DNA of 62,619 nucleotides. Source: Poseidonia sp. Lineage in GTDB: Archaea > Thermoplasmatota > Poseidoniia > Poseidoniales > Poseidoniaceae. Below, in pieces: positions 3,001-19,968 of this stretch (the first letter of the stretch is position 1; every line of letters starts with the position of its first letter). Below the pieces are notes generated by a model. The model made no database searches. It worked only from the letters and a program-made list of their open reading frames with translations, and was not told the origin of the DNA. The stretch is from contig JBMZJQ010000004.1 of NCBI GenBank assembly GCA_049617635.1, positions 1 to 62,619 on the forward strand. Direction: 5' to 3'. A program made the position numbers and the translations under genes.

Positions 3001-3785
3001 TGGGCTGCCCCGATCAAGACGGTGATGGATGGGCCGATACGGTGGACGAGTTCCCCGACCAGCGCACCCAATACACCGATACAGACGGCGATGGATTTGG
3101 CGATAACGCCACGCTCGGCGCCTATCGACCGGACCACTGGCCCAACGATGCAACTCGCAACTCCGCCGAAGCGTCGATGACATGTTCCCCGACCACGATC
3201 ACCGTGGACCTGGCGGCGAGTGGATGGTTCTCGTTCACCTGCACGGTCAGCACCCAGATGAGCACAGCGTTCGCCGCCAACGTGGACTGGGAGGCGACCA
3301 CCAGCATTGCGGGTGAGACCTCGAACCATTTCCTGACCTTCACATCCAACACGGGCACCACGCAAACGGTCACGTTTTCGGGCACCGCGAAAGTGATGGG
3401 GACCCACGATCTGTTGTTGTCTGCTCGCGAGCCCGGGGCGAACTACCCCATGGATACCGTGACGGTCACGATCATCGCAAAAGACTCCAACGCACCGGTA
3501 ACCGTTCTTGACGAAGCCGAGGGTTCCCTGCTCACGATGGTGACGGACAACGTCATGTTGCAAGCCGGTCTTGCCGGTTTGGTCCTGTTTGTGCTGATGG
3601 GTGCACTGATGATGCGAGGACGTGCCAAGAACTCCAAAGAAACCCTGCGTCGAGAGCGTCGGTTGAGCGAACTTCGAGAACAGCATGGCATCACGGAATT
3701 GCCACAACGTGGCATGGTTCAACGACCACAAACGATGCCTCGTCCACCGTCGAATTCCATGTTCGATGAGTTCCGGAGAAGGTGA
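1..3785 (+). CDS. Secreted subtilisin-like (S8) protease C-terminal part fused to a long thrombospondin type-3-like calcium-binding repeat array, with a C-terminal TM anchor. The 5' end lies outside the window.
   Basis: The frame is open from nt 3 with no upstream stop. The first residues, ...PNNHEGWGLVN, match the G-x-G-x-V-N end of S8 catalytic domains. They are followed by the LALSWTDP...NDLDLAV beta-sandwich that commonly follows S8 domains. About 30 DxDGDGY(S/G)D(P/N) motifs occur with conserved CP...GC pairs. A hydrophobic segment (LAGLVLFVLMGALMM) is followed by a basic tail. Confidence 0.8.
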   Translation, partial: SSTNGAGEAAPNNHEGWGLVNMTQAINTSWLQGESVITNAERGWSFNVPANAADINLALSWTDPASTPSASTNLVNDLDLAVKDPSGTWTNLSNNLDNLRGMTLSSPAQGTWEVHVLGSNVPTGPQFFALAMTGDYSLTNLTQDTDGDGYEDEDDDCNQTAGTSTIDRTGCPDTDNDGYSNPDGSWTVNNGADAFPSEPTQWADTDFDGYGDNSAGTEPDACINLAGNSTGDRYGCTDSDGDGFSNPDSGWTTANGADACASVSGPSDEDRNGCPDQDGDGYSDPDSGWTTANGADAFPTDDTQWVDSDGDGYGDNPPPATTGDGCPTSSGTSTQDRYGCADTDGDGYSDPDVLWTTANGADAFVADATQWSDGDSDGYGDNASGNNPDACPTQFGTSTEAGRLGCTDTDGDGYADVDDAFPSESTQWADTDGDGYGDELTGYQGDACPSTSGTSSRDRFGCTDTDGDGSSDGDANWTSANGADVAPNDATQWLDTDGDGYGDNPTGTNGDACPLVNGNSTNDRRGCPDTDGDGYSDPDALWTTDDGADAYPNDPTRWGDNDGDGYDDGLDDDCPTLFGTSMHDRKGCPDQDGDGYSDPDSGWTTANGADAFMTDATQWNDTDGDGYGDNPSGSLPDACVNTYGESWQNGTFGCPDGDEDGWANSQDSHPDEQSQWADTDGDGYGDNPGGVNPDSCVNDAGNSTQGNRLGCPDTDGDGWDDTIDALPNLDTQWLDQDGDGYGDNASGLQPDACPGEAGTSTEDRYGCVDDDGDGYSNASDAFPSDPTRWNDTDGDGFDDVEDACPLTAGTSTEDRLGCVDTDGDGVSNPSPPAGNDSGWNASDGADAFPDDATQFSDQDFDGFGDNASGHQPDACPTQAGGSTVDRFGCVDEDSDGTSDDNDDFLGDSTQWSDGDSDGYGDNPNGSQPDACPTEAGTSTLDGFGCTDTDGDGASDLNDLWPGDASQWFDSDGDGYGDEAAGTDGDDCPAESGDSTQGGVMGCPDQDGDGWADTVDEFPDQRTQYTDTDGDGFGDNATLGAYRPDHWPNDATRNSAEASMTCSPTTITVDLAASGWFSFTCTVSTQMSTAFAANVDWEATTSIAGETSNHFLTFTSNTGTTQTVTFSGTAKVMGTHDLLLSAREPGANYPMDTVTVTIIAKDSNAPVTVLDEAEGSLLTMVTDNVMLQAGLAGLVLFVLMGALMMRGRAKNSKETLRRERRLSELREQHGITELPQRGMVQRPQTMPRPPSNSMFDEFRRR
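430..3110 (+). repeat. Coding tandem repeats (TSP3-like, roughly 90-aa double units)
   Basis: A recurrent unit of the form DTDGDGYSDPD..WTTANGADAFP.D.TQW.D.DGDGYGDN....PDACP...GTST.DR.GC is visible about 12-15 times in the translated ORF. Confidence 0.85.
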
Positions 3786-8304: not shown

Positions 8305-9084
8305 TCAGGCGTTGTTGCGCTGGGTTTTGCATCCCACGCCCCAATCCGGTTGAGCAGCCATCGCCCGACGAGTGGCTTCAAGCAACACGTCCTCTGGCGT
8401 GGCTTCGCTTGGTGTTGAGGGGGTCATAGCAAGGGATAAATGGTATTCATTTTCCACCCAATATACCAATTGGATTTTTGAATTTCCAATTGAAATTTCA
8501 CATTCTTCTAACCCAATTGGAATTTCAATTTCTCGTGGATTGAGGTGCATCCCGAGACCGAGTGATTTCTGCACCGCTTCTTTGGCGGTCCACGACACCA
8601 TGGCCGATGCTGGGTGTTCTTGCAAGGCAGCAAGTTCCCGCCCTTTTGCCATCATGTCGTAGGCGTTCGACGCAAGTGTTCGTGTCAGCGGTTCAGCATC
8701 GATGCCCACACGGTGACTCGGCGGGCTGAGCGCAACGAACACACGACCGTGGCTGTGGGCGATGGAGACATGGGGCAGTGGTGTTCGTTTCCAAACCCCC
8801 TGAATGTAGTTGAGGTACGGTGCTCGATGCTCGGTACGATGGACCTCAAGACACGACAGGTCGTCAATACCCCAGCGATGCAAGGCCAGACCCAGCAACC
8901 AGCGGCCGCTCAGGTGTTCATCCATGCGCTTCTGTGTGACGAAGGTCGCCACTTCGTTGGCATCAGCGAGAGGCACATCACCGGGTGCGTGGTGATGCAG
9001 GGGAGCCGACAGAACGAGAAGCCCATCGTGCTTCAACGGAGGTGCGTGTTGGACGATGCCGTCCATGTCCTCACCGTTGGTCAT
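8305..9084 (-). CDS. Sfp-type 4'-phosphopantetheinyl transferase (PfaE-like)
   Basis: Motifs HRVGIDAEP (GxD-x-E) and WTAKEAVQKSLG (W-x-x-KE-x-x-x-K). The start overlaps the megasynthase stop by 4 nt (9081-9084). Confidence 0.85.
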   Translation of the reverse strand: MTNGEDMDGIVQHAPPLKHDGLLVLSAPLHHHAPGDVPLADANEVATFVTQKRMDEHLSGRWLLGLALHRWGIDDLSCLEVHRTEHRAPYLNYIQGVWKRTPLPHVSIAHSHGRVFVALSPPSHRVGIDAEPLTRTLASNAYDMMAKGRELAALQEHPASAMVSWTAKEAVQKSLGLGMHLNPREIEIPIGLEECEISIGNSKIQLVYWVENEYHLSLAMTPSTPSEATPEDVLLEATRRAMAAQPDWGVGCKTQRNNA

Positions 9085-12000
9085 CGGTCCAGCGAGAACC
9101 GCTGACCGTCTTCAACCGTTGCCATGGCCTTCAACTGCAGACCTCTCAACGCCATGACCGGGGCATCGTCCTCACCAACCACAAGCACATCGTGAACGGT
9201 GATACCGTCGTCTTGATGGCCGGTTTGGACGCTACGCAATCGAAGGGCTTCGTTGGCTTCGGGCACACGCAACATGGTCGACCACGTGATCCCGACAGGC
9301 AGGCTGCTGAAGCCCAGCGTTTCCATCGCCACCAGGCCGGCGTTTTGGAAGCCCGCCTCAATAAGCATCGGTAGGGCTTCGAGAAGCACCTGTTCTCCCT
9401 CCCGTTCCACAGCAAACTGGTCTGTTTCGGGGAGTTGGTGTCGCATCAAGGCAACACCGTCAATGCCCATGACATCCCCTTCGCCTACACCTCGCAAGAC
9501 GCCACCATGGGATTGGAAACGGGGGCCGTGGAAATACCGGTCGTAGATGAACGAGGCTGGGTGCAACAAGGCTCCGGCCGGTGGCGTTCCAATCGTCGGC
9601 AATTCATCCACCTCGCGTTGCAAGAACGGACACATGTCGTCGCATTTCTCCACCAAGCGGACCAACGCTGTGTGGTGGTCACGCTCACCAAAGACCTCTC
9701 CTTTCGAATTTGTAAGGTCAGACACCAAGCGGCATCGAACCCACGTCATGTCGCCCTCGGTACGCTCAACTTGAGCGTCAACCCGAACCGTCATCGGCCC
9801 CTTCATGAGTTTCACAGGCAGGCCAAAGGTGACCTCTTCGAAACCTGCAAGGCAGGTTGATGGTCGAAGCAACAAGGCGTTTTGTGCAAACATCTCAAGC
9901 GCCATCACACCGGGATGATAGGGCACGCCTTCGATGGCATGGTCAACCAAAAACGGATGGTCTTCGGTTGACAACGTGCTTTGCGAAACCATGTGGCTCC
10001 CCTCTTCCAGCGACACCACCTTGTCCATGAAGGGGAATCGTGCAGGGTCGGCCATCATGGCCGACATCTCTGCTGGAAGTTTCAGTGGCGCCTCACGGAA
10101 CGAAGAGAACCGGTCCATCAGGCCGAGGGACCCGCACCCAAGCACCCGCCGCTTGCCCCCTTGAAGGGCTTCGGCGACGAAAATGGCCACGCCGTCCTCA
10201 ACGGCGAGGGTCTCGATGCCGGCCGCTGCGAACACCGCTTCAATAGAGCCTCGAGTGGCCATGCCGACGTCGCGCCAGCCCGTCCACCCGATGGCGACAC
10301 CGCGTCCTTCCGAGGTGGCGGTGAGCCGAGCCATTTCAGCATCAAGCACGGAGTTGGCCGCAGCGTAATCGGTTTGTCCACCGTTCCCAAAGCGACCCGC
10401 AACGCTGGTGAAACAGCATGCAAAGGTTGGGTTCTCTCGTCCAGACGCGCGAACGGCTCCCAGCAAGGCTCGCCAGCCGTCCACTTTGACACGAACCACA
10501 CGGTCAAACACGTCGTAGCCTTTGTCGCCCACCAGCTTGGAATCCTCCAAGCCCGCTCCGTGAACAATGCCCGTGATGGGTCGTCCGAGTGACGCCCCCA
10601 ACGTCGCCAGGCCCTCGTGGTCCATGACATCAACAGAATGGTAGGAGGCGTGGTTGCCGGTGGCTTCGATAGCGCTGAGGGTGAGGTACACGTCCCGGCT
10701 TCGAGTGAATCGCTGCCACGCGTTGTTCCATTCCACCATGGTGACCTTTCCACTCTCGCTGGCTTCGATGAGCCGCTGGCGAAGTTCGTTCTTTTCTTGG
10801 TCGAGTTGAGCCTCATCCCAATCAATCCACGAAGAGGTCGACTCGACGAGTGTTGAGCGCCCGAGCAAAACAAAGTGAGCGCCAGCCTTTGGCGAAGCCT
10901 TGGCCACGCCGATGACGGAGGCAGCGGTCACGCCCGACCCACCGCCGGAAACCAGCCAAGTGTCCTCCGCCGTCAATGGCTGGGTCTCTTCGACCACATC
11001 CTCGGCAAAGGCAACCAGAGCCCATCGTCGCCCGTCTCGGTCAAGACCGATTTCGACCTCGCCGGCCAAGCCAAAGATATCCGCTTCGACCATGGCGGCC
11101 GCAGATGCCTCGTCAAACACATGCTCTGGATGCAGATCGAGGGCCCTGCAACGGAGGTCCGTTCGTTCAAAGGCGAAGGATTTGGTCACACCGCTTGCCG
11201 CACATTGCACGGCGTTGAAGCGGTCACCAATGTTGCCGTGACGACCGTCAAGGGCGGTCACGGAAGCGATGAATCCTGGAGCCTCGGTGGACATCAACGG
11301 GCTCAACTCCTTCAGCAGACCGAACCAACCGTGGGCCGCAAGGGCGATTTGCGAAGAAGGATAGGTGTCCTCTTCCCATTGTTCTGAGGCGAGTTTCATC
11401 GGTGCCATGTGAACCATGCCAGCGATGCTTGAGGAACCAAGTTGTTGAGCAATCCACTGAAGATGCTCGGGTTGCTCGGGGTCGGCACGGTAAACGGTTC
11501 GACCGTTTTCGTCCATGGACGAGGGGTCTCGAATTCGGGTTTCGAAGCCGATTCGAACCGCCTCCAAACCGCGTGCTTCCATGCGTTGACAGAAGGCTTC
11601 AGCGATGCCCCAGCCGTCATCGGACACCACGACGGTGCCCTTCACCTCAAGCGAAGCGGGTACGCCAGGGCATGCCTCAATCTCAACTTGCCACCGGCGC
11701 GTACCGGCTTGGAACGAGGAGGGGGCCGAATCCAAAGGAGCCGAAGAGGTCGGCGCTTCACTGACCGATGACGATGCCTCGGCTGGCGGGGTCGCATCAC
11801 CGGTCATTTTGACGATGTAGGCTGTGAAGTGGTTCAGTGTAGGATGGTCGGCGAGAACGAAGTCCTCGTCCACAGGCAGAGCGAAGCGGTCCCTGATTTC
11901 TGCCATGATTTCAGCCTGTTTCACGGTATCAATGCCCAATTCACCTTCCAAATCTTGGTCCATCTCAATGAAATCCGGAGGATAGCCTGTGTGGCTGACG

Positions 12001-15000
12001 ACCACCTCGACCAGCACCGACTCAATGTCGGGTCTGGGCCCGGTTGGTGCTGGCGGAGAGGGAGCGGGCGATGCGGTTACAGGTGGCGATGGAGGCGTGA
12101 CGGCTTGGGGCGTTGGTGCTGGTGCCGCTGCAGGCGTCGCTGCTCCGCCACCCTGCATGCGCTGAATGTAGCCGATCATGTGGTTCAGCGTGGGGTGGTC
12201 GGCGAGAACAAAGTCCTCGTCAATGGGGAGTGAAAATCGATCTCGAATGTCCGCCATGATCTCGGCTTGCTTGACGGTGTCAATGCCCAACTCACCTTCC
12301 AAATCTTGGTCGAGTTCAATGAAATCGGCAGGGTATCCAGTGTGCTGAACAACCACGGCGACCACCGTTTCGGTCATGGCCGCGTCATCGACAACAGCAG
12401 GCGCAGCCGCTGCTGGTGCAACGACCGGTGCGGGTGCGGGGGTCGCAACTTGGGCGGGCTCGGAAGGTGCGGGGGCCGGGGCGGGCGGGGCGGCAGCGGG
12501 GGCACCTCCGGTCATGCGCTGAATGTAGCCGATCATGTGATTCAAGGTGGGATAGTCGGCAAGGACGAAGTCCTCGTCCACCGGCAAGCCGAAACGTTCT
12601 CGGATGTCGGCCATGATTTCGGCTTGCTTGACGGTGTCAATGCCCAACTCGCCTTCCAGGTCTTGGTCCAACTCAACGAAATCAGCGGGATACCCCGTGT
12701 GATGAACCACAACGTCGATCACCGTGGCCACCGTATCTCCACCGGCTTCGACGGCGGGAGTTGCGACAGGGGCCGCTGGTGGTGCAGGCGTTGGTGCCGG
12801 TGCCACCTCAGCGGGAGCGGGTTGTGCGGGCGGCTCAACCGCCTTGGGTGCGGGCTGTTCGACCACGGAGGGTTGGCCTTCCCATTCTTGGGTTGGTGGC
12901 CAAGCATCGCCTTGTACCCCGCCGTGGAGGTTGTCGTCGCCGTTGACGTAAGCGACCAGTTTGTTTTGCAGAATTCGCATCACTACGTCGTCCGTACCTG
13001 CCAGCGTGCGTGCCCAAGCGAGGAGTTTTGCCCCGTTGATACGGTCGCCCTCAACCGGCCATTTCTTCATGAGCGAGAGCGCAATTTGCGAGCCAAACCC
13101 TGCCGCAAAGCGGAGACCGTACTTGAGTTCGGGGTAGTCTCCTCCCGTCGAGAGGTTGAGATCGCCGAGCTCTGGGTCCTTCTCTTTGTGGTTGGCAATC
13201 GGAGGGATACGACCCGTGAGCAAGCCGTAGAACATGCTGGCGTCTTCGATGCCCACCGCCATTGGATGGCCGGTGAAGCCTTTCGTGTTGGCGATGACCA
13301 ACTTGTTGGTTGATTCACCAAAGGTCTCACGCAAGGCCCTCACTTCGGACTGGGCGGAACCTCCACGGGCTGGCGTGTAGGTCTCGTGGGAGAAAAAGAC
13401 GGTGTCAGGGGCCATCTCGTGACGGTTAAGGCCCCATCGTTGTTCCATATCGGCGATGAACCCGTTGACCACGGCACCCACGTGTTCCACATCGAGCCGT
13501 GTGCCGTGGTAGGCTGAGTTGGCGGTGGTTGAACCCAAGAACTCGGCGATGGGTTGCACGCCTCGTTGTTCTGCTTCGGAGTGGCGCTCGACGACAAAGG
13601 CCGCCGCACCCATGCCCAAAATCAGGCCGTTACGACGACGGTCAAAGGGCAATGCCGTTTCCTCAACCACGTTGCTCGTGGCGGCTGCACCCGAGGCTGC
13701 AAAGCCGCCGGCAATCCATTCCCAGAGGTCATCGCCGGTCACGTCGTCACCGCTGATGATGACCACACGGTCCACTCGACCGGCGTCCAACCAATCCTCG
13801 GCAACGCCGAACGCTGCCGTGGCCGAGGCGCAGGCGAGGTTGATGGTGGTGTTTGGTCCCCGGATGCCCGTGTATTGGGCAAATTGAGAGTGGCCCATGT
13901 TGAGGGTTTGGAACAGGTAGCGACGGTCAAACCGTCCCTCACCGTCATCGCCGTTGTTCTTGGCGTGCTTGGACGCCATTTGCAAACCGGGGAAACAGGA
14001 GGAAAACACGATACCGGTGCGTTCGCGTTGCATCTGCGGCACCTGCCAGTTTCGAATCAGGCGCAGGCCGCCTTTGCCCACCTGCTCAACGGGCGTGAGG
14101 GGGATGCCGGCGTCGCGCAACGCCAGCAATCCGGCAGCAACCGCCAACTGTGTGCTGATGTCCCATGCCACGATGGCTTTTGGATCGATGCCGAATTCCT
14201 CAGCCAAGTCAAAGGCGCCCTTGAGACCGGCCAGTTGTGGAATGTCACCAAACACCGTGGCTTGGTCCATGTTCACCGAACCGTCACGGCCTTTGATGAG
14301 ACGAACGATGTTCTTGTCCAGCAAACGTTGCTTGTATTCATCCGAAACCTCGCTGATGCACGTTTCTCCACGCACCAACTTCTCAAAGGCGTCCTCCGAG
14401 AACACCCGTTCCATGCCCGGCAAACCCAAGGAAATACCCGTGACCACGTACGGGTCAATATCGCGCGTTGAGGTGGGCTGGAGCGCAGATACGGTCTGCA
14501 CGGCAACCGCCTTGAGCGAGGGGGGAGCGGTGACCGTGGCCATCGGCCTCCAGGTTGCTGGTGGCTCGCGTACCCAGCGAGTGAGATCGCCGGCCGTCAC
14601 GGCCGACGCCCCATCGAATTCCGGGTCGGTGGTCGATTCCGAGGCGATGGTCGCCACCACCTGTTGCACCTGAGCTGACGTGAGGCCCAAGCCTTCCACC
14701 AAGGCCACGTTGCCGTGACAGAAGGAGGCAGGATAGCCGCTGAACTTGGCCACACGGTCGCCGACATACGCCCGGATGGAACGTTCCCGCGCGTACTCGT
14801 CGTCCATGTTGGCAACATGAACCACGGAGGTTGGTGGAGCCGAAGGGACACTGGCGCCGCTTCCGGGCAGGGGGCGAGCACGGACACGCAAAGCCTCCAA
14901 TTCTGCGCTGGTGGAGGAAGCGCTGAGGGATGAAGCCATGCGAGCCTCGATGGGACCGGCTTTGAACCCGTCCTGCAGTGCAGGCGAATCCAAGGCAGGC

Positions 15001-17906
15001 CAAGCAGGCGGACGACCGGCGATGGCCATCGCACCGATGGCGGTGAACAGACTGGCAACGCCGCCTTGCTTGGGATGGTTCGTCATCACCGGCACGTGCG
15101 GGCGGCCTTCGAGAATCTGCATCGCAAACATCGTGAGGGCTCGCTTCGGACCAACTTCGACAAAGAGGCGCCCTCCAGCCTCGTACATGGTCTCAATCTG
15201 TTTGGTCCACTCAACGGACGATGCCATTTGTGGAGCCAATTTGACCAGGATATCGGTCTTGGAATCCTCACCCTTCATCGGATAGAACATACCGTCAACG
15301 TTGGCTGTAATAGGGACCGACGGCCACCGAATCTCAAGGCCTTCCAGGAAGCGGCGCAGCGGTTCGTTTGCTGGCGCCACGATACGCGAGTGGAAGGCGT
15401 GCGAGGTGGCCAATTCCACGCAGTTGAACCCCTTCGCCTCAAACGCCGCCATCGCGGCACGCACGGGTGCTGTCTCGCCGGCGATGACCGTCATCTTGGG
15501 TGAGTTTTTGTTGGCGGCGATGACGTAGCCGTCGGTGGCGTCGAGAATGGCCTCCACCTCTTCGAACGGAGCCGTCACGCTGGCCATGAGGCCTTTGTCG
15601 TCAATTTCCACAGCGCCCATTTCCGTGCCACGGGCGGCAGCTGCTCGCAGGGCACCGTCCATATCGAGGATGCCCGACGACATCAAGGCAGCGTATTCGC
15701 CCAGCGAATGGCCAGCCACCATGTCGGGTTGATGGCCGAAACTTTGCAGCGTTCGCTCGATGGCCAAATCGGCCGTCAGCATGGCCGGCTGGGTGTATTC
15801 TGTTTGCTTGAGTTTGTGCTCGGCCTCTTTCAATTCCTCAGCCGTCAGTGAGGAACGGAGCACGAAACTGGAGAGCGTTTCGCCGTCGAGTACGTCGATC
15901 ATGGTCTCGTCTGCCTGCGCCCACACCTCTGCAGGGGCCGTGAAGCGCTGAACCAAATCGGCGGTCATGCCCACGTATTGACTGCCTTGGCCGGGGTACA
16001 TGTGGACGGCTTTCGCTTCGCTTGGCAAGGCCGGCTGGTCGGTCACCAGCACCCCTTGAGCCTGCAGGAACCCCCACTTGTCTTTGTCAGCCAGGGCTTG
16101 GGCGGCCAGGGTTTGGCGCTTGGAAAATTCGGCCCAGGACGTGGCCACCACGGCCAAGCGAACGGCGGCTGTCGCCTCAAATGCACCGCTGGCGGTTTGC
16201 AAGGCTTCGGAGAGGCGTCGCCCCCGCGGGTCGTCGTCAAACAACGGGCCGCTGAACGACAAGGCCCCAAGTTGTGCCGCCACCTCTTCCAAGGAATCTC
16301 CTGAAAGCAACAGAACGCCTCCCTCAACGGCTTTGAGCGCCTCGTGCGTCATTGTTGCCTCAAGCGCACCATCGAAAATGGACGGTGCAGCGGCGCTGGA
16401 TTGGCCGCTGTAGGCTTGCCATCGTGCGTCCCATTGGGAGGCCAACGGGGCGTGGTAGTCGGGTTCGTATCCTTCGAGAGCCAGGTGGAAATTGGTCCCA
16501 CCGAAGCCAAACGCAGAGACACCGGCACGCCTTGGGTGGTCGCTTGGCCGAGGCCAATCGAGCGGCTGTGTTGGGACAAAGAACGGAATGTTGTTCCAAT
16601 CCACGGTTGGATTGGGGGTTTCGAAATTGGCACTGGGAGGTATGGTGCGGTGGTGCAGGGCCATCACGGCCTTCATGATGCCAGCAATACCCGCAGCCGC
16701 CTTGAGATGGCCGATTTGTGACTTGATGGAACCAACCGCCACCTTGCCCGTTCCCTCAACGCCGGTCCAGAGACGGGACAGGGTGGACAGTTCCGTTGCA
16801 TCCCCCACTTTGGTGGAGGTGCCGTGGGCTTCGACGAGTTCAACGCTTGATGCGGGGTATCCCGCTTGGGCATACGCCCGTGCTATCGCTTGAATTTGCC
16901 CGCGTTGGCTCGGCGCCGTGATCCCTTTTCCTCGGCCGTCGGAAGAGCCGCCCACGCCTCGAATGACGCTGAAGATGGCATCGTCGTCTCGAATAGCATC
17001 GCTCAATCGCTTCAGGACCAACACGCCGGCTCCTTCGCCCATCACGAACCCGTTCGCCCGAGCATCAAACGGAGAGGAGTGGCTTGGAGAAAGGGCGCCG
17101 ATGGCTGAGAATTTTGCAAACGTAGCAGGGTCCATGGTTCGGTCCGAAGCGCCCGCGAGCATGACGTCCACTTGACGGGTCTGCAACAGCCGGCAAGCAT
17201 CGAGCACCGCAGCCATGGAGGACGCACACGCCGCATCCATGGCGTGGTTCGGCCCCTGCAAATCGAGCAGGTTGGCCACGCGCCCCGACACCACGTTGGC
17301 CAACTCACCCGGCATGGTGTCTTCGTCGACTCGCGGCGTGCCTTCGAGCACAGAGGCCGTGAAGGCGTCGGCTTGGTCGGCCGGCAGGCCGTGTTGCTTT
17401 GCCAGTTCGGCGGTGTGGTTGGACCACACGCGAATGTTGGACATGTTTCGGTTTTCACCACCGAGAGCATTGGCGAAGACCACCCCGGTTCGGGAGCGAT
17501 CGAGGTCCTTGGATTCGCCATCGTAGCCAGCGTGCTCGATGGCATCGGCTGAGACCGTTACCGCCCACTGCTGGCAGGGGTCGATTTGCGGAAGGGTCCC
17601 GGGAGGTTGTCGCCAACGACGCCAATCGAATTCCGCATCGGTCACCAGCGCTCCGATTTTGGCGTAGGTGAAGCCTTCGGTGTGGGCGCCAGGGCCGCCT
17701 TCCTTCCAAAAATGGTCAACAGGGCCGGGCCAGCGGCCTTCTGGCAGGGGTTTGATGCTGACCTTGGCATCGAGCACGTTTTGCCAAAAGGCGTCAATAT
17801 CGTGAGCGTCGGGCATCAACGCCCCTACACCGATGACGGCGATGGGTTCGAACGGTCCTTGTTCGATGCCCTCGCAGGCTTTGCCGTCTTCGGTCGTCAG
17901 CGTCAT
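9081..17906 (-). CDS. Iterative type I FAS/PKS megasynthase (PUFA-synthase PfaA-like): KS - malonyl-AT - carrier-like - KS - 3x ACP - KR - PS-type DH
   Basis: Uninterrupted 2941-aa ORF. Motifs in order: DAACASS / EAHGTST / GSIKSQIGH (KS1); GQGSQ, GHSLGE, HAFHS (AT); GLGLTS (carrier-like); NLACASA / SHETYTP / TGHPMAVG (KS2); 3x LGIDTVKQAEIMA separated by Ala/Pro linkers (ACPs); GGGSGVT ... YAAAN (KR); LVDHAIEGVPYHPG (DH). Confidence 0.95.
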   Translation of the reverse strand: MTLTTEDGKACEGIEQGPFEPIAVIGVGALMPDAHDIDAFWQNVLDAKVSIKPLPEGRWPGPVDHFWKEGGPGAHTEGFTYAKIGALVTDAEFDWRRWRQPPGTLPQIDPCQQWAVTVSADAIEHAGYDGESKDLDRSRTGVVFANALGGENRNMSNIRVWSNHTAELAKQHGLPADQADAFTASVLEGTPRVDEDTMPGELANVVSGRVANLLDLQGPNHAMDAACASSMAAVLDACRLLQTRQVDVMLAGASDRTMDPATFAKFSAIGALSPSHSSPFDARANGFVMGEGAGVLVLKRLSDAIRDDDAIFSVIRGVGGSSDGRGKGITAPSQRGQIQAIARAYAQAGYPASSVELVEAHGTSTKVGDATELSTLSRLWTGVEGTGKVAVGSIKSQIGHLKAAAGIAGIMKAVMALHHRTIPPSANFETPNPTVDWNNIPFFVPTQPLDWPRPSDHPRRAGVSAFGFGGTNFHLALEGYEPDYHAPLASQWDARWQAYSGQSSAAAPSIFDGALEATMTHEALKAVEGGVLLLSGDSLEEVAAQLGALSFSGPLFDDDPRGRRLSEALQTASGAFEATAAVRLAVVATSWAEFSKRQTLAAQALADKDKWGFLQAQGVLVTDQPALPSEAKAVHMYPGQGSQYVGMTADLVQRFTAPAEVWAQADETMIDVLDGETLSSFVLRSSLTAEELKEAEHKLKQTEYTQPAMLTADLAIERTLQSFGHQPDMVAGHSLGEYAALMSSGILDMDGALRAAAARGTEMGAVEIDDKGLMASVTAPFEEVEAILDATDGYVIAANKNSPKMTVIAGETAPVRAAMAAFEAKGFNCVELATSHAFHSRIVAPANEPLRRFLEGLEIRWPSVPITANVDGMFYPMKGEDSKTDILVKLAPQMASSVEWTKQIETMYEAGGRLFVEVGPKRALTMFAMQILEGRPHVPVMTNHPKQGGVASLFTAIGAMAIAGRPPAWPALDSPALQDGFKAGPIEARMASSLSASSTSAELEALRVRARPLPGSGASVPSAPPTSVVHVANMDDEYARERSIRAYVGDRVAKFSGYPASFCHGNVALVEGLGLTSAQVQQVVATIASESTTDPEFDGASAVTAGDLTRWVREPPATWRPMATVTAPPSLKAVAVQTVSALQPTSTRDIDPYVVTGISLGLPGMERVFSEDAFEKLVRGETCISEVSDEYKQRLLDKNIVRLIKGRDGSVNMDQATVFGDIPQLAGLKGAFDLAEEFGIDPKAIVAWDISTQLAVAAGLLALRDAGIPLTPVEQVGKGGLRLIRNWQVPQMQRERTGIVFSSCFPGLQMASKHAKNNGDDGEGRFDRRYLFQTLNMGHSQFAQYTGIRGPNTTINLACASATAAFGVAEDWLDAGRVDRVVIISGDDVTGDDLWEWIAGGFAASGAAATSNVVEETALPFDRRRNGLILGMGAAAFVVERHSEAEQRGVQPIAEFLGSTTANSAYHGTRLDVEHVGAVVNGFIADMEQRWGLNRHEMAPDTVFFSHETYTPARGGSAQSEVRALRETFGESTNKLVIANTKGFTGHPMAVGIEDASMFYGLLTGRIPPIANHKEKDPELGDLNLSTGGDYPELKYGLRFAAGFGSQIALSLMKKWPVEGDRINGAKLLAWARTLAGTDDVVMRILQNKLVAYVNGDDNLHGGVQGDAWPPTQEWEGQPSVVEQPAPKAVEPPAQPAPAEVAPAPTPAPPAAPVATPAVEAGGDTVATVIDVVVHHTGYPADFVELDQDLEGELGIDTVKQAEIMADIRERFGLPVDEDFVLADYPTLNHMIGYIQRMTGGAPAAAPPAPAPAPSEPAQVATPAPAPVVAPAAAAPAVVDDAAMTETVVAVVVQHTGYPADFIELDQDLEGELGIDTVKQAEIMADIRDRFSLPIDEDFVLADHPTLNHMIGYIQRMQGGGAATPAAAPAPTPQAVTPPSPPVTASPAPSPPAPTGPRPDIESVLVEVVVSHTGYPPDFIEMDQDLEGELGIDTVKQAEIMAEIRDRFALPVDEDFVLADHPTLNHFTAYIVKMTGDATPPAEASSSVSEAPTSSAPLDSAPSSFQAGTRRWQVEIEACPGVPASLEVKGTVVVSDDGWGIAEAFCQRMEARGLEAVRIGFETRIRDPSSMDENGRTVYRADPEQPEHLQWIAQQLGSSSIAGMVHMAPMKLASEQWEEDTYPSSQIALAAHGWFGLLKELSPLMSTEAPGFIASVTALDGRHGNIGDRFNAVQCAASGVTKSFAFERTDLRCRALDLHPEHVFDEASAAAMVEADIFGLAGEVEIGLDRDGRRWALVAFAEDVVEETQPLTAEDTWLVSGGGSGVTAASVIGVAKASPKAGAHFVLLGRSTLVESTSSWIDWDEAQLDQEKNELRQRLIEASESGKVTMVEWNNAWQRFTRSRDVYLTLSAIEATGNHASYHSVDVMDHEGLATLGASLGRPITGIVHGAGLEDSKLVGDKGYDVFDRVVRVKVDGWRALLGAVRASGRENPTFACCFTSVAGRFGNGGQTDYAAANSVLDAEMARLTATSEGRGVAIGWTGWRDVGMATRGSIEAVFAAAGIETLAVEDGVAIFVAEALQGGKRRVLGCGSLGLMDRFSSFREAPLKLPAEMSAMMADPARFPFMDKVVSLEEGSHMVSQSTLSTEDHPFLVDHAIEGVPYHPGVMALEMFAQNALLLRPSTCLAGFEEVTFGLPVKLMKGPMTVRVDAQVERTEGDMTWVRCRLVSDLTNSKGEVFGERDHHTALVRLVEKCDDMCPFLQREVDELPTIGTPPAGALLHPASFIYDRYFHGPRFQSHGGVLRGVGEGDVMGIDGVALMRHQLPETDQFAVEREGEQVLLEALPMLIEAGFQNAGLVAMETLGFSSLPVGITWSTMLRVPEANEALRLRSVQTGHQDDGITVHDVLVVGEDDAPVMALRGLQLKAMATVEDGQRFSLDR
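9102..10034 (-). other. PKS/PUFA-type dehydratase (double hotdog) domain (aa ~2625-2935)
   Basis: HxxxGxxxxP motif (H2656-G2660-P2665) in HPFLVDHAIEGVPYHPGVMALE. Confidence 0.8.
10227..10964 (-). other. Ketoreductase domain (aa ~2315-2560), preceded by a structural pseudo-KR region (aa ~2070-2310)
   Basis: Rossmann motif VSGGGSGVTAAS, catalytic Y in QTDYAAANSV, and upstream K (VKVDG) and S (FTSVAG). Confidence 0.8.
11802..12743 (-). repeat. Three tandem ACP domains (351-357-nt period) separated by Ala/Pro-rich linkers
   Basis: Near-identical 75-80-aa units. The GIDT codons lie at 12633-12635, 12276-12278 and 11925-11927, and all three are ACC (Thr). Confidence 0.85.
13062..14459 (-). other. 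KS2 domain (aa ~1150-1615), Cys1359 at 13830-13832
   Basis: NLACASATAAF (Cys), FFSHETYTP (His1507), NTKGFTGHPMAVG (His1547) and a C-terminal GFGSQIA. Confidence 0.8.
14577..14789 (-). other. Carrier-protein-like domain (aa ~1040-1110) with Ser1077 at the canonical position
   Basis: FSGYPASFCHGNVALVEGLGLTSAQVQQVVATI aligns by eye with the downstream ACPs (HTGYPADFVELDQDLEGELGIDTVKQAEIMADI). Its Ser (TCA, 14676-14678) aligns with their Thr. Confidence 0.4.
15117..16010 (-). other. Acyltransferase domain (aa ~633-930), Ser734 at 15705-15707, malonyl-type
   Basis: YPGQGSQ, GHSLGEYAA and the HAFH specificity motif. Confidence 0.9.
16473..17849 (-). other. KS1 domain (aa ~20-478), active-site Cys227 at 17226-17228
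   Basis: Cys-His-His triad motifs: DAACASS, EAHGTST and SQIGHLKAAAG. Confidence 0.9.
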
Positions 17907-17915
17907 GTCGTCACC

Positions 17916-18707
17916 TCAATTCATGATGCTCTCGGGAACCATCGTGATGGAATATCCAGCATCGACGTAGATGCATTGGCCGGTGACGCCCGATGCCAGC
18001 GGGCTTGAAAGCCACAACGTTGCACCGGCGACGTCGTCCTGGTTGACGTTTCGACGGAGCGGAGCGTTGGCTTCGACGTGGTCCAAAATACGATCAAACC
18101 CTGGAATGCCGCTGGCGGCGATGGTGCGGATGGGGCCCGAGGAAATGGCGTTGATGCGATGGCCTTCGGGGCCAAGGTGGCAAGCCAATTCCCTGGTCCA
18201 GCATTCCAAGGCGGCTTTCGCCATCGACATGATGCCGTAACTTGGCACGAATCGCGTGGAGGCGGCGTACGTCAAGGTCACCGTCGACGAGCCCGGGTTG
18301 AGGTAGGGGAGTGCATGCTTGAGACAGCGCTGAAGGGAATTGGCCGAGATGGTCATCGCCGTGTTGATGTCGTCGTCTTCAACGAACAGAATCGGTCGGT
18401 CAAAGCAAGAGCGAGGAGCAAAGCCGATGGCGTGAATCAGGATGTCGGCCTTTTTACCCGGATGTTCTGCTGCAAACGCAGTGAAAAATTCCGCCGTGGT
18501 GGCGTCGGAGGCGACATCCAAAGGATAGAATCCTCCAATCGCAGGGAGTTGGTCCTTGAGCTGGAACACACGGCTCATGAACCGCTTCTGGTACCCCAGA
18601 TAGAGGGTGACTCCAGCGGCTGCCAACTGCTGACAAATCGCCCATGCAATGGAGTCTTCACTGGCCACCCCGAAGACAAAGGCTGTTTTTCCTTCAAGAC
18701 CCAACAT
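17916..18707 (-). CDS. fabI: Enoyl-[acyl-carrier-protein] reductase, FabI type (SDR)
   Basis: MLGLEGKTAFVFGVASEDSIAWAI (typical FabI N-terminus) and Y-x6-K in YGIMSMAKAALE. Its stop is 9 nt upstream of the megasynthase start. The ATG at 18707 is preferred over the GTG at 18716. Confidence 0.9.
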   Translation of the reverse strand: MLGLEGKTAFVFGVASEDSIAWAICQQLAAAGVTLYLGYQKRFMSRVFQLKDQLPAIGGFYPLDVASDATTAEFFTAFAAEHPGKKADILIHAIGFAPRSCFDRPILFVEDDDINTAMTISANSLQRCLKHALPYLNPGSSTVTLTYAASTRFVPSYGIMSMAKAALECWTRELACHLGPEGHRINAISSGPIRTIAASGIPGFDRILDHVEANAPLRRNVNQDDVAGATLWLSSPLASGVTGQCIYVDAGYSITMVPESIMN

Positions 18708-18828
18708 GAAAAACACTCCGTGGGGAACAGGTGTAGTGCGCTACACCAAGCCTTTGACTGTTGCCCATGAAAACGGGACACATCGGCCGAGTTACGAAGC
18801 AAAACACCACGACGGAGCAACCCGTTCA

Positions 18829-19968
18829 TCACAGGTCAGCAAAGACGGCATCGAAGTCATCTTCACCGTCTCCGTCCTCGGGGAACAAATCGTCGAGTTC
18901 TGAGAAATCAAATTCTTCCTCTTCCGGCTCATCCTCAACGTCCACGGGCGGGACATACATCGGTTGCGAGTTGGCTTTTCGACGGAGTGCTTTCGCCAAA
19001 GCCAGGACGAAAATCAGACCGAACAGGACGGCTGCACCAATGCTGCCATAGAGCACGACGGTGTCTTTGTTGACTTCTTCAAGCCCGCCGCCCAGTCCGC
19101 CAGCCGTGTTGCCGGCCTCGAGTTGAACGGAGATGCTCAGTTCACTGACGGGTGCTTCCTCGTCGTTTTGGCTCTCCGCTTGGAAGATCAGTTGGAAGCG
19201 CTCGTCCTCCACCACATCTGAAGGTGCGCGCACCGTCAATTCACGCACGGTGGAAATGCCATCCTCTGCAACATTTTCCGACACAAACGTGCCGCCGGGG
19301 AAGGTGAAGCCTGCTTCTTCGAGGACGTCGGCGTTGGTGATGGAGACCCTGATGTTGTCGTCATCGTTGCCGTTGTTTTGGAACTGGAAGGAAATTTTGA
19401 CCTCATCGCTCTTCTTCATGGTCCGTGTGCTCTTGTCAGAGATGTCAAGGTCCACCATGCCAAAGGTGGCGATGTTCAAATCACCGCTCACGGTAGCGTT
19501 GGAGGACAAGCCTTCGGGCCAGTCCAACATGCCGACGTTGGTCACGGTTGCGACGAGGGTAAAGTCGTAGGATAGCGAAGAGGAGAGGCGGGTTTGCCCC
19601 GTGAAGGTGACGAGGAAATCTTCCTCTTCGTCAGGACCGAGGTCAAAGGTGTCCTCCTCAAGCATCATGTCAACTTCGATGCCATCCCATTCTTTCTCAA
19701 CGTTGATCGATTCTTGGAAGGAGGAGGGGTTCTTGACCGTGCAGGTGATTTCAACCACGGGCGTGCTCAAGGGGTGGACGTCAAGTTCGGGTTGCTTGTT
19801 GTCGCAATCGATTTCCACACCCGGTGCGGTGGGCACCTGAGCGCCAACAGGCGGTGCGAAGGAGAGAACCATCAACATCAGCACCAAAACGGACCAACGG
19901 CGAGATGACAACATGGCGCTCCCACCTTCGCCTGTCCATCCTCTTTCATCAATGTGCTGGGCGGCCAA
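18829..19968 (-). CDS. Secreted, C-terminally TM-anchored protein with two beta-sandwich (CARDB/NEW3-like?) modules and an acidic cytoplasmic tail
   Basis: Signal peptide (WSVLVLMLMVLSFAPPVGA), a late TM helix (VVLYGSIGAAVLFGLIFVLALA), then a DE-rich tail. No catalytic motif recognised. Confidence 0.6.
   Translation of the reverse strand: MAAQHIDERGWTGEGGSAMLSSRRWSVLVLMLMVLSFAPPVGAQVPTAPGVEIDCDNKQPELDVHPLSTPVVEITCTVKNPSSFQESINVEKEWDGIEVDMMLEEDTFDLGPDEEEDFLVTFTGQTRLSSSLSYDFTLVATVTNVGMLDWPEGLSSNATVSGDLNIATFGMVDLDISDKSTRTMKKSDEVKISFQFQNNGNDDDNIRVSITNADVLEEAGFTFPGGTFVSENVAEDGISTVRELTVRAPSDVVEDERFQLIFQAESQNDEEAPVSELSISVQLEAGNTAGGLGGGLEEVNKDTVVLYGSIGAAVLFGLIFVLALAKALRRKANSQPMYVPPVDVEDEPEEEEFDFSELDDLFPEDGDGEDDFDAVFADL

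What the first reader, a model, noticed from the sequence alone, without database searches (positions are those of the whole stretch)
11802..12743. All three tandem ACP domains carry Thr (GIDTVK) where the phosphopantetheinyl Ser should be
Seen in sequence:
- The three carrier repeats read ...DQDLEGELGIDTVKQAEIMA(D/E)IR...
- The residue aligned with the universal DS(L/I) serine is Thr in every copy (ACC at 12633-12635, 12276-12278 and 11925-11927).
- Flanking codons differ synonymously between copies (GAC/GAT, GTC/GTG), so this is conserved coding and not a sequencing artefact.
- No alternative Ser exists in helix II.
- The extra carrier-like domain upstream (aa 1040-1110) has Ser1077 at the aligned position (GLGLTSAQ).

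Established knowledge: carrier proteins are primed on a conserved Ser by PPTases.

Inference, one of three: the cognate PPTase (8305-9084) phosphopantetheinylates Thr, which would be unusual chemistry; or these repeats are non-canonical scaffolds and only the Ser-containing domain is loaded; or this is a family-specific variant I do not know of.
Basis: partly seen in the sequence, partly recalled or inferred. Interest (0 to 1): 0.75.

Follow-up and report, generated by a model that had tools for sequence, protein, structure and literature searches.

The report
Carrier domains with threonine, not serine
A marine archaeon's fatty-acid-type megasynthase, and hundreds of related enzymes in bacteria, carry threonine at the carrier-domain position where every textbook carrier protein has the cofactor-bearing serine, which suggests an undescribed threonine-linked form of this modification.

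Summary
ORF 9081-17906(-) encodes KS-MAT-KS2-ACPx3-KR-DH. All three ACPs are good PP-binding domains. Thr1758, Thr1877 and Thr1994 sit exactly where the phosphopantetheinyl Ser belongs, at the first residue of helix II.

It is not a local oddity. LG[IV]DTVKQ marks a large family with this architecture, matching the uncharacterised "Type R secondary lipid synthase" of Shulse & Allen 2011.
- More than 600 matches were found in species-representative genomes.
- Hosts include Marine Group II archaea (the window's source), Myxococcota, Actinomycetota, Chloroflexota, Elusimicrobiota and others.
- Of 681 tandem ACP domains surveyed, 464 carry Thr and 214 Ser. 120 proteins are all-Thr.
- All four Thr codons are used.
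- Two Ser-bearing lineages are nested inside Thr clades.
- An Sfp-type PPTase with intact catalytic motifs is adjacent or fused in 67 of 79 loci.

The upstream "Ser1077" domain is a degenerate ACP. That position is Ser in only 3 of 36 orthologs, and the domain is absent from bacterial members.

Best reading: Thr is the real attachment site, loaded by the co-encoded PPTase. This is inferred, not shown. I found no report of it in the searchable literature.

The parts
12504..12734 (-). ACP1 (aa 1725-1801), motif LGIDTVKQAE; Thr1758 = ACC at 12633-12635
   Evidence: PF00550 E 1e-9. PDB alignments put Thr on the Ser of DSL. AF2 pLDDT 92.3, with helix II starting at this Thr. Coordinates.
12147..12377 (-). 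ACP2 (aa 1844-1920); Thr1877 = ACC at 12276-12278
   Evidence: PF00550 E 4.4e-10. PDB alignments. Coordinates.
11796..12026 (-). ACP3 (aa 1961-2037); Thr1994 = ACC at 11925-11927
   Evidence: PF00550 E 2.3e-9. Coordinates.
9081..17906 (-). Whole megasynthase gene, 2941 aa: KS1 - MAT - pseudo-ACP X - KS2 - ACPx3 - KR - DH
   Evidence: ORF, translation, Pfam. NCBIfam best hit is TIGR02813 PfaA at 840 bits, below its 1010-bit cut-off.
16329..17849 (-). KS1 (aa 20-526), PfaA/PKS-type ketosynthase with its C-terminal extension. Motifs DAACASS, EAHGTST and GHLKAAAG are present.
   Evidence: PF00109, PF02801 and PF16197. Motifs read.
15108..16007 (-). Malonyl acyltransferase domain (aa 634-933), with GHSLGE and HAFHS motifs
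   Evidence: PF00698 E 6.7e-36. TIGR00128 fabD E 2.3e-56.
14562..14780 (-). Region X (aa ~1043-1115): degenerate ACP-like domain containing Ser1077. It is specific to the archaeal lineage and its closest relatives.
   Evidence: hhalign against the ACP profile gives prob 95.5%, E 1.5e-8. No Pfam hit. The attachment column is not conserved. It is absent from bacterial homologs.
12987..14369 (-). KS2 (aa ~1180-1640), FabF-like second ketosynthase that keeps the active-site Cys (NLACASA), SHETYTP and GFTGH
   Evidence: Second stretch of PF00109/PF02801. Best PDB hits are FabF, E 3e-25. The Cys column is C in 240 of 241 aligned homologs.
10257..11309 (-). Ketoreductase domain (aa ~2200-2550)
   Evidence: PF08659 E 3.5e-21, matched at aa 2403-2546. 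The wider boundary comes from homolog coverage.
9084..10034 (-). PKS-type dehydratase domain (aa 2625-2941), with the HxxxGxxxxP motif
   Evidence: PF21089 E 9e-10. Motif read.
8305..9084 (-). Sfp-type 4'-phosphopantetheinyl transferase. Its start overlaps the stop of the synthase gene.
   Evidence: PF01648 at 37.3 bits against a cut-off of 25. H110, D129, E131, W165, K168, E169 and K173 are invariant in 17 homologs. The profile hits AcpS, AASDHPPT and Sfp 1qr0/4mrt.
17916..18716 (-). FabI-type enoyl-ACP reductase, immediately upstream in the same orientation
   Evidence: PF13561 E 1.2e-68. NCBIfam FabI models down to E 2e-66. Conserved at this position in the archaeal loci.

Best explanation
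The three repeats are working acyl carrier domains of an iterative, PfaA-related type I fatty-acid/secondary-lipid synthase. In this family the 4'-phosphopantetheine attachment residue is threonine instead of serine. The co-transcribed Sfp-type PPTase (8305-9084) transfers phosphopantetheine from CoA to the hydroxyl of Thr1758, Thr1877 and Thr1994. The holo-ACPs then shuttle malonyl and acyl intermediates between KS1/KS2, MAT, KR, DH and the trans-acting FabI.

Shown here:
- the domains are canonical ACP folds;
- Thr occupies the Ser position;
- Thr is conserved family-wide under purifying selection;
- a catalytically intact PPTase is almost always co-encoded.

Inferred:
- that Thr is actually phosphopantetheinylated;
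- that this PPTase does it.
For: 1. Register and fold. PDB alignments, Pfam, the AF2 model with Thr as the first residue of helix II and Foldseek matches to holo-ACPs all agree.

2. Family-wide conservation.
- Among the best 150 of 1.84e9 representative proteins plus some cluster members, 681 ACP domains were aligned to an HMM. The site is T in 464, S in 214, A in 1 and D in 1.
- 120 proteins are all-T and 43 are all-S.
- All 59 archaeal fragments in which the motif could be read keep [IV]DTVK.
- 235 complete ACPs in 79 genome loci are all Thr. Codons used are ACG 122, ACC 71, ACT 27 and ACA 15.
- LG-x-D-T-V-K-Q is invariant in a 22-sequence cross-phylum alignment.

3. Interchange with Ser inside the family.
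- P0169 reads DQDLEGELGVDSVKQAEIM. This is the window's motif apart from I>V, with Ser in place of Thr. It falls as sister to the archaeal clade in a KR tree.
- P0151 (DSVKVAE) is nested next to Thr-type P0103 and P0157.
- In L080 (the P0169 contig) the Ser codon is TCT, one base from ACT, and a homologous PPTase lies downstream.

4. No alternative carrier. No other ACP is encoded in the window. The Ser of region X is not conserved, and X is absent from bacterial members.

5. A dedicated PPTase. It is adjacent or fused to the synthase C-terminus in 67 of 79 loci. Nine of the remaining loci are truncated. Its catalytic motifs are invariant.

6. The rest of the synthase is intact. KS1, MAT, KS2, KR and DH motifs are present, so a carrier is needed.
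Against: - No experiment or mass-spectrometric datum is available.
- Phosphopantetheinylation is described only on Ser (for example PMC7949117).
- From memory, unverified: a Ser36Thr E. coli ACP is not modified by AcpS.
- The survey's query and the genome scan's pattern both contained Thr. The T:S ratio is therefore biased upward, and at least one Thr per locus is guaranteed by construction. The other 156 copies were unconstrained.
- The KR tree is a simple neighbour-joining tree without support values.
- The literature search covered open-access full text only, so a report in a subscription journal could have been missed.
Confidence: 0.7

Rival explanations
1. The Thr domains are unmodified pseudo-ACP scaffolds or spacers. 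The real carrier is either the Ser-containing region X or a separate ACP encoded elsewhere and acting in trans. The neighbouring PPTase serves that other carrier.
For: - Ser is regarded as universal for Ppant attachment.
- Region X is a genuine ACP-like fold with Ser at the aligned position in this window.
- Degenerate ACP copies do occur in some tandem arrays, for example P0103 (GVKDAD), P0088 (GIDAVK) and P0114.
Against: - The Ser column of X is Ser in only 3 of 36 orthologs, and X is absent from bacterial family members.
- No other ACP is found in 62.6 kb.
- The whole PPTase-recognition motif LGxDTVKQ is invariant across phyla in every copy, which is not expected for spacers.
- Ser-bearing lineages nested in the Thr clade keep the same context.
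- PPTases fused to the synthase itself in L040, L052, L054 and L072 argue for an in-cis substrate.
- Archaea are generally held to lack housekeeping ACP. This is established knowledge and was not tested for this genome.
Confidence: 0.12
2. Thr is the functional site but carries something other than a standard CoA-derived 4'-phosphopantetheine, or is loaded only conditionally or inefficiently. The Thr would then act as a regulatory or stability device, for example through resistance of the phosphodiester to beta-elimination or to ACP phosphodiesterases.
For: - Strict conservation of Thr, together with Val (not Ile) at the next position in 462 of 464 cases, suggests selection for a specific property and not neutral drift.
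- A dedicated PPTase is kept even in bacteria that have housekeeping PPTases.
Against: - The PPTase keeps every canonical Sfp-type CoA/Mg and catalytic motif.
- Nothing in the operon suggests another cofactor pathway.
- Ser revertants exist with a homologous PPTase.
Confidence: 0.13
3. The Thr codons are a sequencing, assembly or frame artefact of a repetitive region.
For: Tandem ACP repeats do break assemblies. One search returned 69 short fragments of 49-140 aa from related genomes.
Against: - The three copies differ at 26-28 synonymous codons per pair yet keep Thr.
- Hundreds of independent genomes show the same residue with four different codons.
Confidence: 0

Closest known systems
Type R secondary lipid synthase (Shulse & Allen 2011, PMC3098273): pfaA homolog KS-MAT-CLF-ACP(3-6)-KR plus a downstream PPTase, in Koribacter, Solibacter, Elusimicrobium and Roseiflexus; product uncharacterised
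   Same: - Same domain order and ACP number, and the PPTase lies directly downstream.
- The phylum spread overlaps: Acidobacteriota, Elusimicrobiota and Chloroflexota appear among the Thr-motif loci.
- An ACC gene sits between synthase and PPTase in Planobispora (L044), as described for Koribacter.
   Different: - The 2011 paper does not mention the Thr.
- It calls the second KS a chain-length factor, whereas here it keeps its Cys.
- It lists no archaea.
- The archaeal version adds a FabI gene upstream and a pseudo-ACP (X), and it lacks the ACC gene.
PfaA of marine PUFA synthases (tandem ACPs, motif LGIDSIKRVEI)
   Same: - Tandem carrier domains separated by Ala/Pro-rich linkers.
- Shared KTGYP...DLGID.[IV]K signature.
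- KS-MAT-...-KR-DH frame.
- Best NCBIfam hit is TIGR02813.
   Different: - The score is below the family cut-off (840 against 1010 bits).
- An extra KS2 lies between MAT and the ACPs.
- No pfaB/C/D partners are present.
- The motif has Thr-Val in place of Ser-Ile.
- PfaA forms a separate clade in the KR tree.
Canonical carrier proteins (PF00550; E. coli/B. subtilis ACP, PigH, type II PKS ACPs) primed on Ser by AcpS/Sfp-type PPTases
   Same: Four-helix fold, attachment position at the N-terminus of helix II, acidic helix II, and an Sfp-type partner enzyme.
   Different: The nucleophile is a secondary alcohol (Thr), for which no phosphopantetheinylation is on record in what I could search.
Enediyne PKSE (KS-AT-ACP-KR-DH-PPTase); compared from memory
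   Same: An iterative synthase with its own PPTase. Some bacterial members of the Thr family have the PPTase fused at the C-terminus (L040, L052, L054, L072).
   Different: PKSE has a single Ser-ACP and no second KS. It was not compared by sequence here.

Membership tests
Carrier protein / PP-binding (PF00550) | HMM match above the gathering score | tested here: met
   Each unit alone scores 37.8-40.1 bits against a cut-off of 20.8.
Carrier protein / PP-binding (PF00550) | Four-helix-bundle ACP fold | tested here: met
   AF2 pLDDT 92.3 with helices at 2-16, 37-51, 61-63 and 67-78. Foldseek TM 0.8-0.86 to solved ACPs.
Carrier protein / PP-binding (PF00550) | Conserved Ser at the N-terminus of helix II as the Ppant site | tested here: not met
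   Thr in all three copies. Thr in 464 of 681 related domains.
Carrier protein / PP-binding (PF00550) | Is converted to the holo form by a PPTase | not testable with these tools
   Needs mass spectrometry of the co-expressed proteins.
Type R secondary lipid synthase (Shulse & Allen 2011) | One pfaA homolog with KS-MAT-KS/CLF-ACP(3-6)-KR | tested here: met
   Pfam order KS, AT, KS, 3x PP-binding, KR, DH. Definition read.
Type R secondary lipid synthase (Shulse & Allen 2011) | PPTase gene directly downstream | tested here: met
   8305-9084(-), PF01648. Present in 67 of 79 related loci.
Type R secondary lipid synthase (Shulse & Allen 2011) | KS groups phylogenetically with the named Type R members (Koribacter, Solibacter, Elusimicrobium, Roseiflexus) | not tested
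Only the phylum overlap was seen.
PUFA synthase PfaA (TIGR02813) | Score at or above the curated cut-off | tested here: not met
   840.1 bits against 1010.1. The best stretch covers only aa 21-964.
PUFA synthase PfaA (TIGR02813) | Cluster partners PfaB, PfaC (KS-CLF-DH2) and PfaD (ER) | tested here: not met
   The neighbours are FabI and a PPTase only. The other flanking ORFs are unrelated.
Sfp-type (group II) PPTase, for ORF 8305-9084 | ACPS-superfamily domain above cut-off, two-lobed size of about 230-260 aa | tested here: met
   PF01648 at 37.3 bits against 25, plus weak N-lobe hits to PF17837 and PF22624. Length 259 aa. The profile hits Sfp and AASDHPPT over both lobes.
Sfp-type (group II) PPTase, for ORF 8305-9084 | Metal-binding and catalytic acidic residues and the W-x-x-K-E motif | tested here: met
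   D129, E131, W165, K168, E169 and K173 are invariant in 17 homologs. Equating them with Sfp D107/E109/E151 is from memory.

The most novel reading that the evidence does not exclude
O-(4'-phosphopantetheinyl)-threonine is a natural post-translational modification made by a dedicated clade of Sfp-type PPTases. It is the normal state of the carrier domains of a whole family of lipid megasynthases, found in at least nine bacterial phyla and in the abundant Marine Group II archaea. The universal-serine rule for carrier proteins would then have a large, unnoticed exception.
Probability: 0.65. Interest if true: 0.8.

Novelty: new variant of a known kind. Interest (0 to 1): 0.7.

Why it matters
- Carrier-protein priming on a conserved serine is treated as invariant in fatty-acid, polyketide and non-ribosomal peptide biochemistry. 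It is built into annotation rules, active-site predictors and engineering practice.
- A family with hundreds of species-level members that uses threonine would add a new modified residue and would imply PPTases able to use a secondary alcohol. Such enzymes could be useful as orthogonal labelling tools.
- Genome-mining software that scores such domains as inactive would need correcting.
- The finding also flags a complete, self-priming, bacterial-type fatty-acyl synthase operon conserved in Marine Group II archaea. That bears on the unresolved question of what lipids these uncultured archaea make.
- The test is cheap: two small proteins and a mass spectrometer.

Tried and rejected
- **Full-length homolog search.** It failed twice with an internal error. 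I therefore could not fetch the named Type R proteins of cultured Roseiflexus or Koribacter.
- **PPTase against PDB.** Direct phmmer found nothing. A profile of 17 homologs was needed.
- **Structure prediction of region X.** It was replaced by a profile-profile comparison.
- **Literature.** Searches for the motif strings, for Thr in place of Ser in carrier proteins, for follow-ups on Type R and for Marine Group II plus PKS/ACP found nothing relevant. The two apparent hits were about other things.
- **Papers not held.** The PPTase review of Beld et al. 2014 and the ybbR-tag paper are not held. The statement that Ser-to-Thr mutants are not modified by AcpS rests on memory only.
- **Rejected readings.** An artefact is excluded. 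"Ser1077 is the real carrier" is excluded. "KS2 is a chain-length factor" is excluded because the Cys is conserved.
- **PPTase difference in the Ser-type sister lineage.** It has SISTS where Thr-type enzymes have SI-x-HS. With one sequence only, this cannot be read as a specificity determinant.

Full report
**What is in the window**

The finding lies inside one large gene, 9081..17906 on the minus strand, encoding 2941 aa. Pfam gives two ketosynthases (aa 20-430 and about 1180-1640), an acyltransferase (634-933), three PP-binding domains, a KR and a PKS-type DH.
- The second KS is FabF-like and keeps its active-site Cys.
- The best NCBIfam match is PfaA (TIGR02813), but at 840 bits it is below the 1010-bit cut-off.
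- Directly upstream in the same orientation is a FabI-type enoyl-ACP reductase, 17916-18716.
- Overlapping the stop codon downstream is a 259-aa PPTase, 8305-9084.

The operon therefore encodes a self-contained, self-priming, iterative fatty-acyl synthase.

**Checking the observation**

The three repeats (aa 1725-1801, 1844-1920 and 1961-2037) each pass the PP-binding gathering score on their own.

The register is confirmed.
- phmmer against PDB chains puts the Thr of GIDTVK on the Ser of LGVDSI / LGIDSV in PigH and of GADSLD in B. subtilis ACP.
- An AlphaFold2 model (pLDDT 92.3) starts helix II at this Thr.
- The model superposes on solved ACPs with TM 0.8-0.86.

The textbook position of the Ppant serine is the N-terminus of helix II (PMC7949117). 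The copies are only 71-78% identical in DNA, with 26-28 synonymous differences per pair. They are old and individually constrained.

**It is a family trait, not a local oddity**

*Close relatives.* A word-indexed search with one ACP returned 69 short fragments, the named ones from Candidatus Poseidoniales (Marine Group II) archaea. All 59 in which the motif could be read have [IV]DTVK.

*Representative proteins.* An exhaustive phmmer of the same 80 residues against 1.84 billion representatives gave 2584 proteins at E<=1e-10. In the best 150 plus some cluster members, I aligned 681 ACP domains to an HMM.
- The attachment column is T 464, S 214, A 1 and D 1.
- 120 proteins are all-Thr and 43 are all-Ser.
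- L, G, D and K around the site are almost invariant.
- Thr goes with Val at the next position, and Ser mostly with Ile.

*Link to architecture.* The Thr motif tracks the domain order. Proteins with LG[IV]DTVKQ have KS1-MAT-KS2-ACPn-KR-DH. The Ser families (LGIDSIKRVEI, which is classical PfaA, and LGIDSIKKAQL) lack KS2.

The best 79 loci come from:
- both Marine Group II families;
- Myxococcota and Bradymonadia;
- Actinomycetota, including the cultured Planobispora takensis and an Amycolatopsis strain;
- Chloroflexota, Leptospiraceae and other Spirochaetota, Elusimicrobiota, Bryobacterales and Gemmatimonadota.

All 79 share the architecture. In these loci 235 complete ACPs carry Thr, using all four codons: ACG 122, ACC 71, ACT 27 and ACA 15. 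One Thr per locus is guaranteed by the search pattern. The other 156 copies were not constrained.

**What the family is**

Shulse & Allen (2011) described a "Type R" secondary lipid synthase. It is one pfaA homolog, KS-MAT-CLF-ACP(3-6)-KR, followed by a PPTase gene, sometimes with an acetyl-CoA carboxylase gene between them. It occurs in Koribacter, Solibacter, Elusimicrobium and Roseiflexus, and its product is unknown. That description fits.

In Planobispora (L044) the order is acyl-CoA dehydrogenase, synthase, multidomain ACC, PPTase. The paper does not mention threonine or the ACP motif. I could not place the window's KS in a tree with the named Type R members, so membership rests on architecture and gene order.

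**Is Thr the working site?**

Five lines of comparative evidence say yes.

1. Conservation is at the amino-acid level, in every copy and across phyla, within an invariant recognition motif.

2. Ser and Thr interchange inside the family.
   - P0169 is the closest relative outside the Marine Group II clade (45-48% identity). It reads DQDLEGELGVDSVKQAEIM. This is the window's motif apart from I>V, with Ser in place of Thr.
   - In a KR neighbour-joining tree P0169 is sister to the window's clade, nested under Thr-type P0070. Ser-type P0151 is likewise nested beside Thr-type P0103 and P0157.
   - In the P0169 contig the Ser codon is TCT, one step from ACT, and a homologous PPTase follows the synthase.

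3. There is no alternative carrier.
   - The window encodes no other ACP.
   - The upstream region X is indeed a diverged ACP (hhalign 95.5%, E 1.5e-8, with Ser1077 in the attachment column).
   - That column reads E11 D10 P4 G4 S3 A2 T1 N1 in 36 orthologs.
   - X is absent from bacterial members.

4. A PPTase is adjacent, a few kb downstream, or fused to the synthase C-terminus in 67 of 79 loci. Nine of the others are truncated. Its H, D-x-E and W-x-x-K-E motifs are invariant. A profile of it matches AcpS, human AASDHPPT and Sfp.

5. The catalytic domains of the synthase are intact, so the enzyme needs a carrier.

**What remains inference, and the rivals**

No tool here can show the modification.
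- *Scaffold or trans-ACP reading (0.12).* It is weakened by points 3 and 4 and by the invariance of the recognition motif.
- *Non-standard or conditional loading of Thr (0.13).* This cannot be excluded. The strict Thr-Val pairing and the retention of a private PPTase in bacteria that have housekeeping PPTases hint that Thr is selected for some property.
- *Artefact.* Excluded.

**Novelty**

Full-text searches for the motif, for Thr-for-Ser in carrier proteins, for Type R follow-ups and for Marine Group II synthases found nothing. The library holds open-access papers only, and key reviews were not available. "Unreported" is therefore provisional. I class the finding as a new variant of a known kind: known fold, known enzyme family, and an unexpected nucleophile used family-wide.

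**Verdict**

Interest 0.7.

Noticed in passing
window 8305-18716 (-); loci L001-L037 and L041: The window comes from a Marine Group II (Poseidoniales) archaeon, about 76% nucleotide identity to the nearest species representatives. The FabI - megasynthase - PPTase operon is conserved in both Marine Group II families. This is a complete bacterial-type, ACP-dependent fatty-acyl synthase in archaea, and I found no discussion of it in the searchable literature.
   Followed up: partly
window 14562-14780 (-), aa ~1043-1115: A degenerate ACP-like domain (GYPA...GLGL[ST]x) lies between MAT and KS2. It occurs only in the archaeal lineage and its closest relatives, and its attachment column is variable. 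It looks like a pseudo-ACP left by a duplication or recruited as a linker or docking element.
   Followed up: yes
window 12987-14369 (-), aa ~1180-1640: The second ketosynthase, labelled a chain-length factor in the 2011 Type R description, keeps the active-site Cys in 240 of 241 aligned homologs. It has SHETYTP where KSs usually have HGTGT. Two apparently active KS domains in one iterative synthase is unusual.
   Followed up: partly
window 8305-8430 (-), C-terminal ~40 aa of the PPTase; alignment: The archaeal PPTases share a conserved C-terminal extension (PED-LL-ATR-AM ... DWGVGCKT-R) with an invariant Cys. Most bacterial homologs lack it. Its function is unknown.
   Followed up: no
L080 5703-6542 (+): The PPTase next to the Ser-type sister synthase (P0169) has SISTS where all Thr-type PPTases examined have SI-x-HS. 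This is one sequence only, so it could be coincidence or a clue to Ser/Thr specificity.
   Followed up: no
L040, L052, L054, L072: In some bacterial family members the PPTase is fused to the C-terminus of the megasynthase, as in enediyne PKSE.
   Followed up: partly
L044 12965-18445 (+): Planobispora takensis has an 1826-aa single-chain, eukaryote-like acetyl-CoA carboxylase (BC-BCCP-ACC_central-CT) between the synthase and the PPTase, and an acyl-CoA dehydrogenase upstream where the archaea have FabI.
   Followed up: partly
window 22235-28135 (-) and 57-3785 (+): Two very large ORFs (1966 and 1242 aa) have no Pfam match at E<=0.001. ORF 18829-19968(-), next to FabI, matches the NCBIfam 'choice-of-anchor T' family.
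   Followed up: no
one search hits P0001-P0069: Related archaeal assemblies yield many 49-140-aa ACP fragments, some on contigs of hundreds of kb. The tandem ACP region seems to break or frameshift gene calls in metagenome-assembled genomes, which may be why the synthase has gone unnoticed.
   Followed up: no
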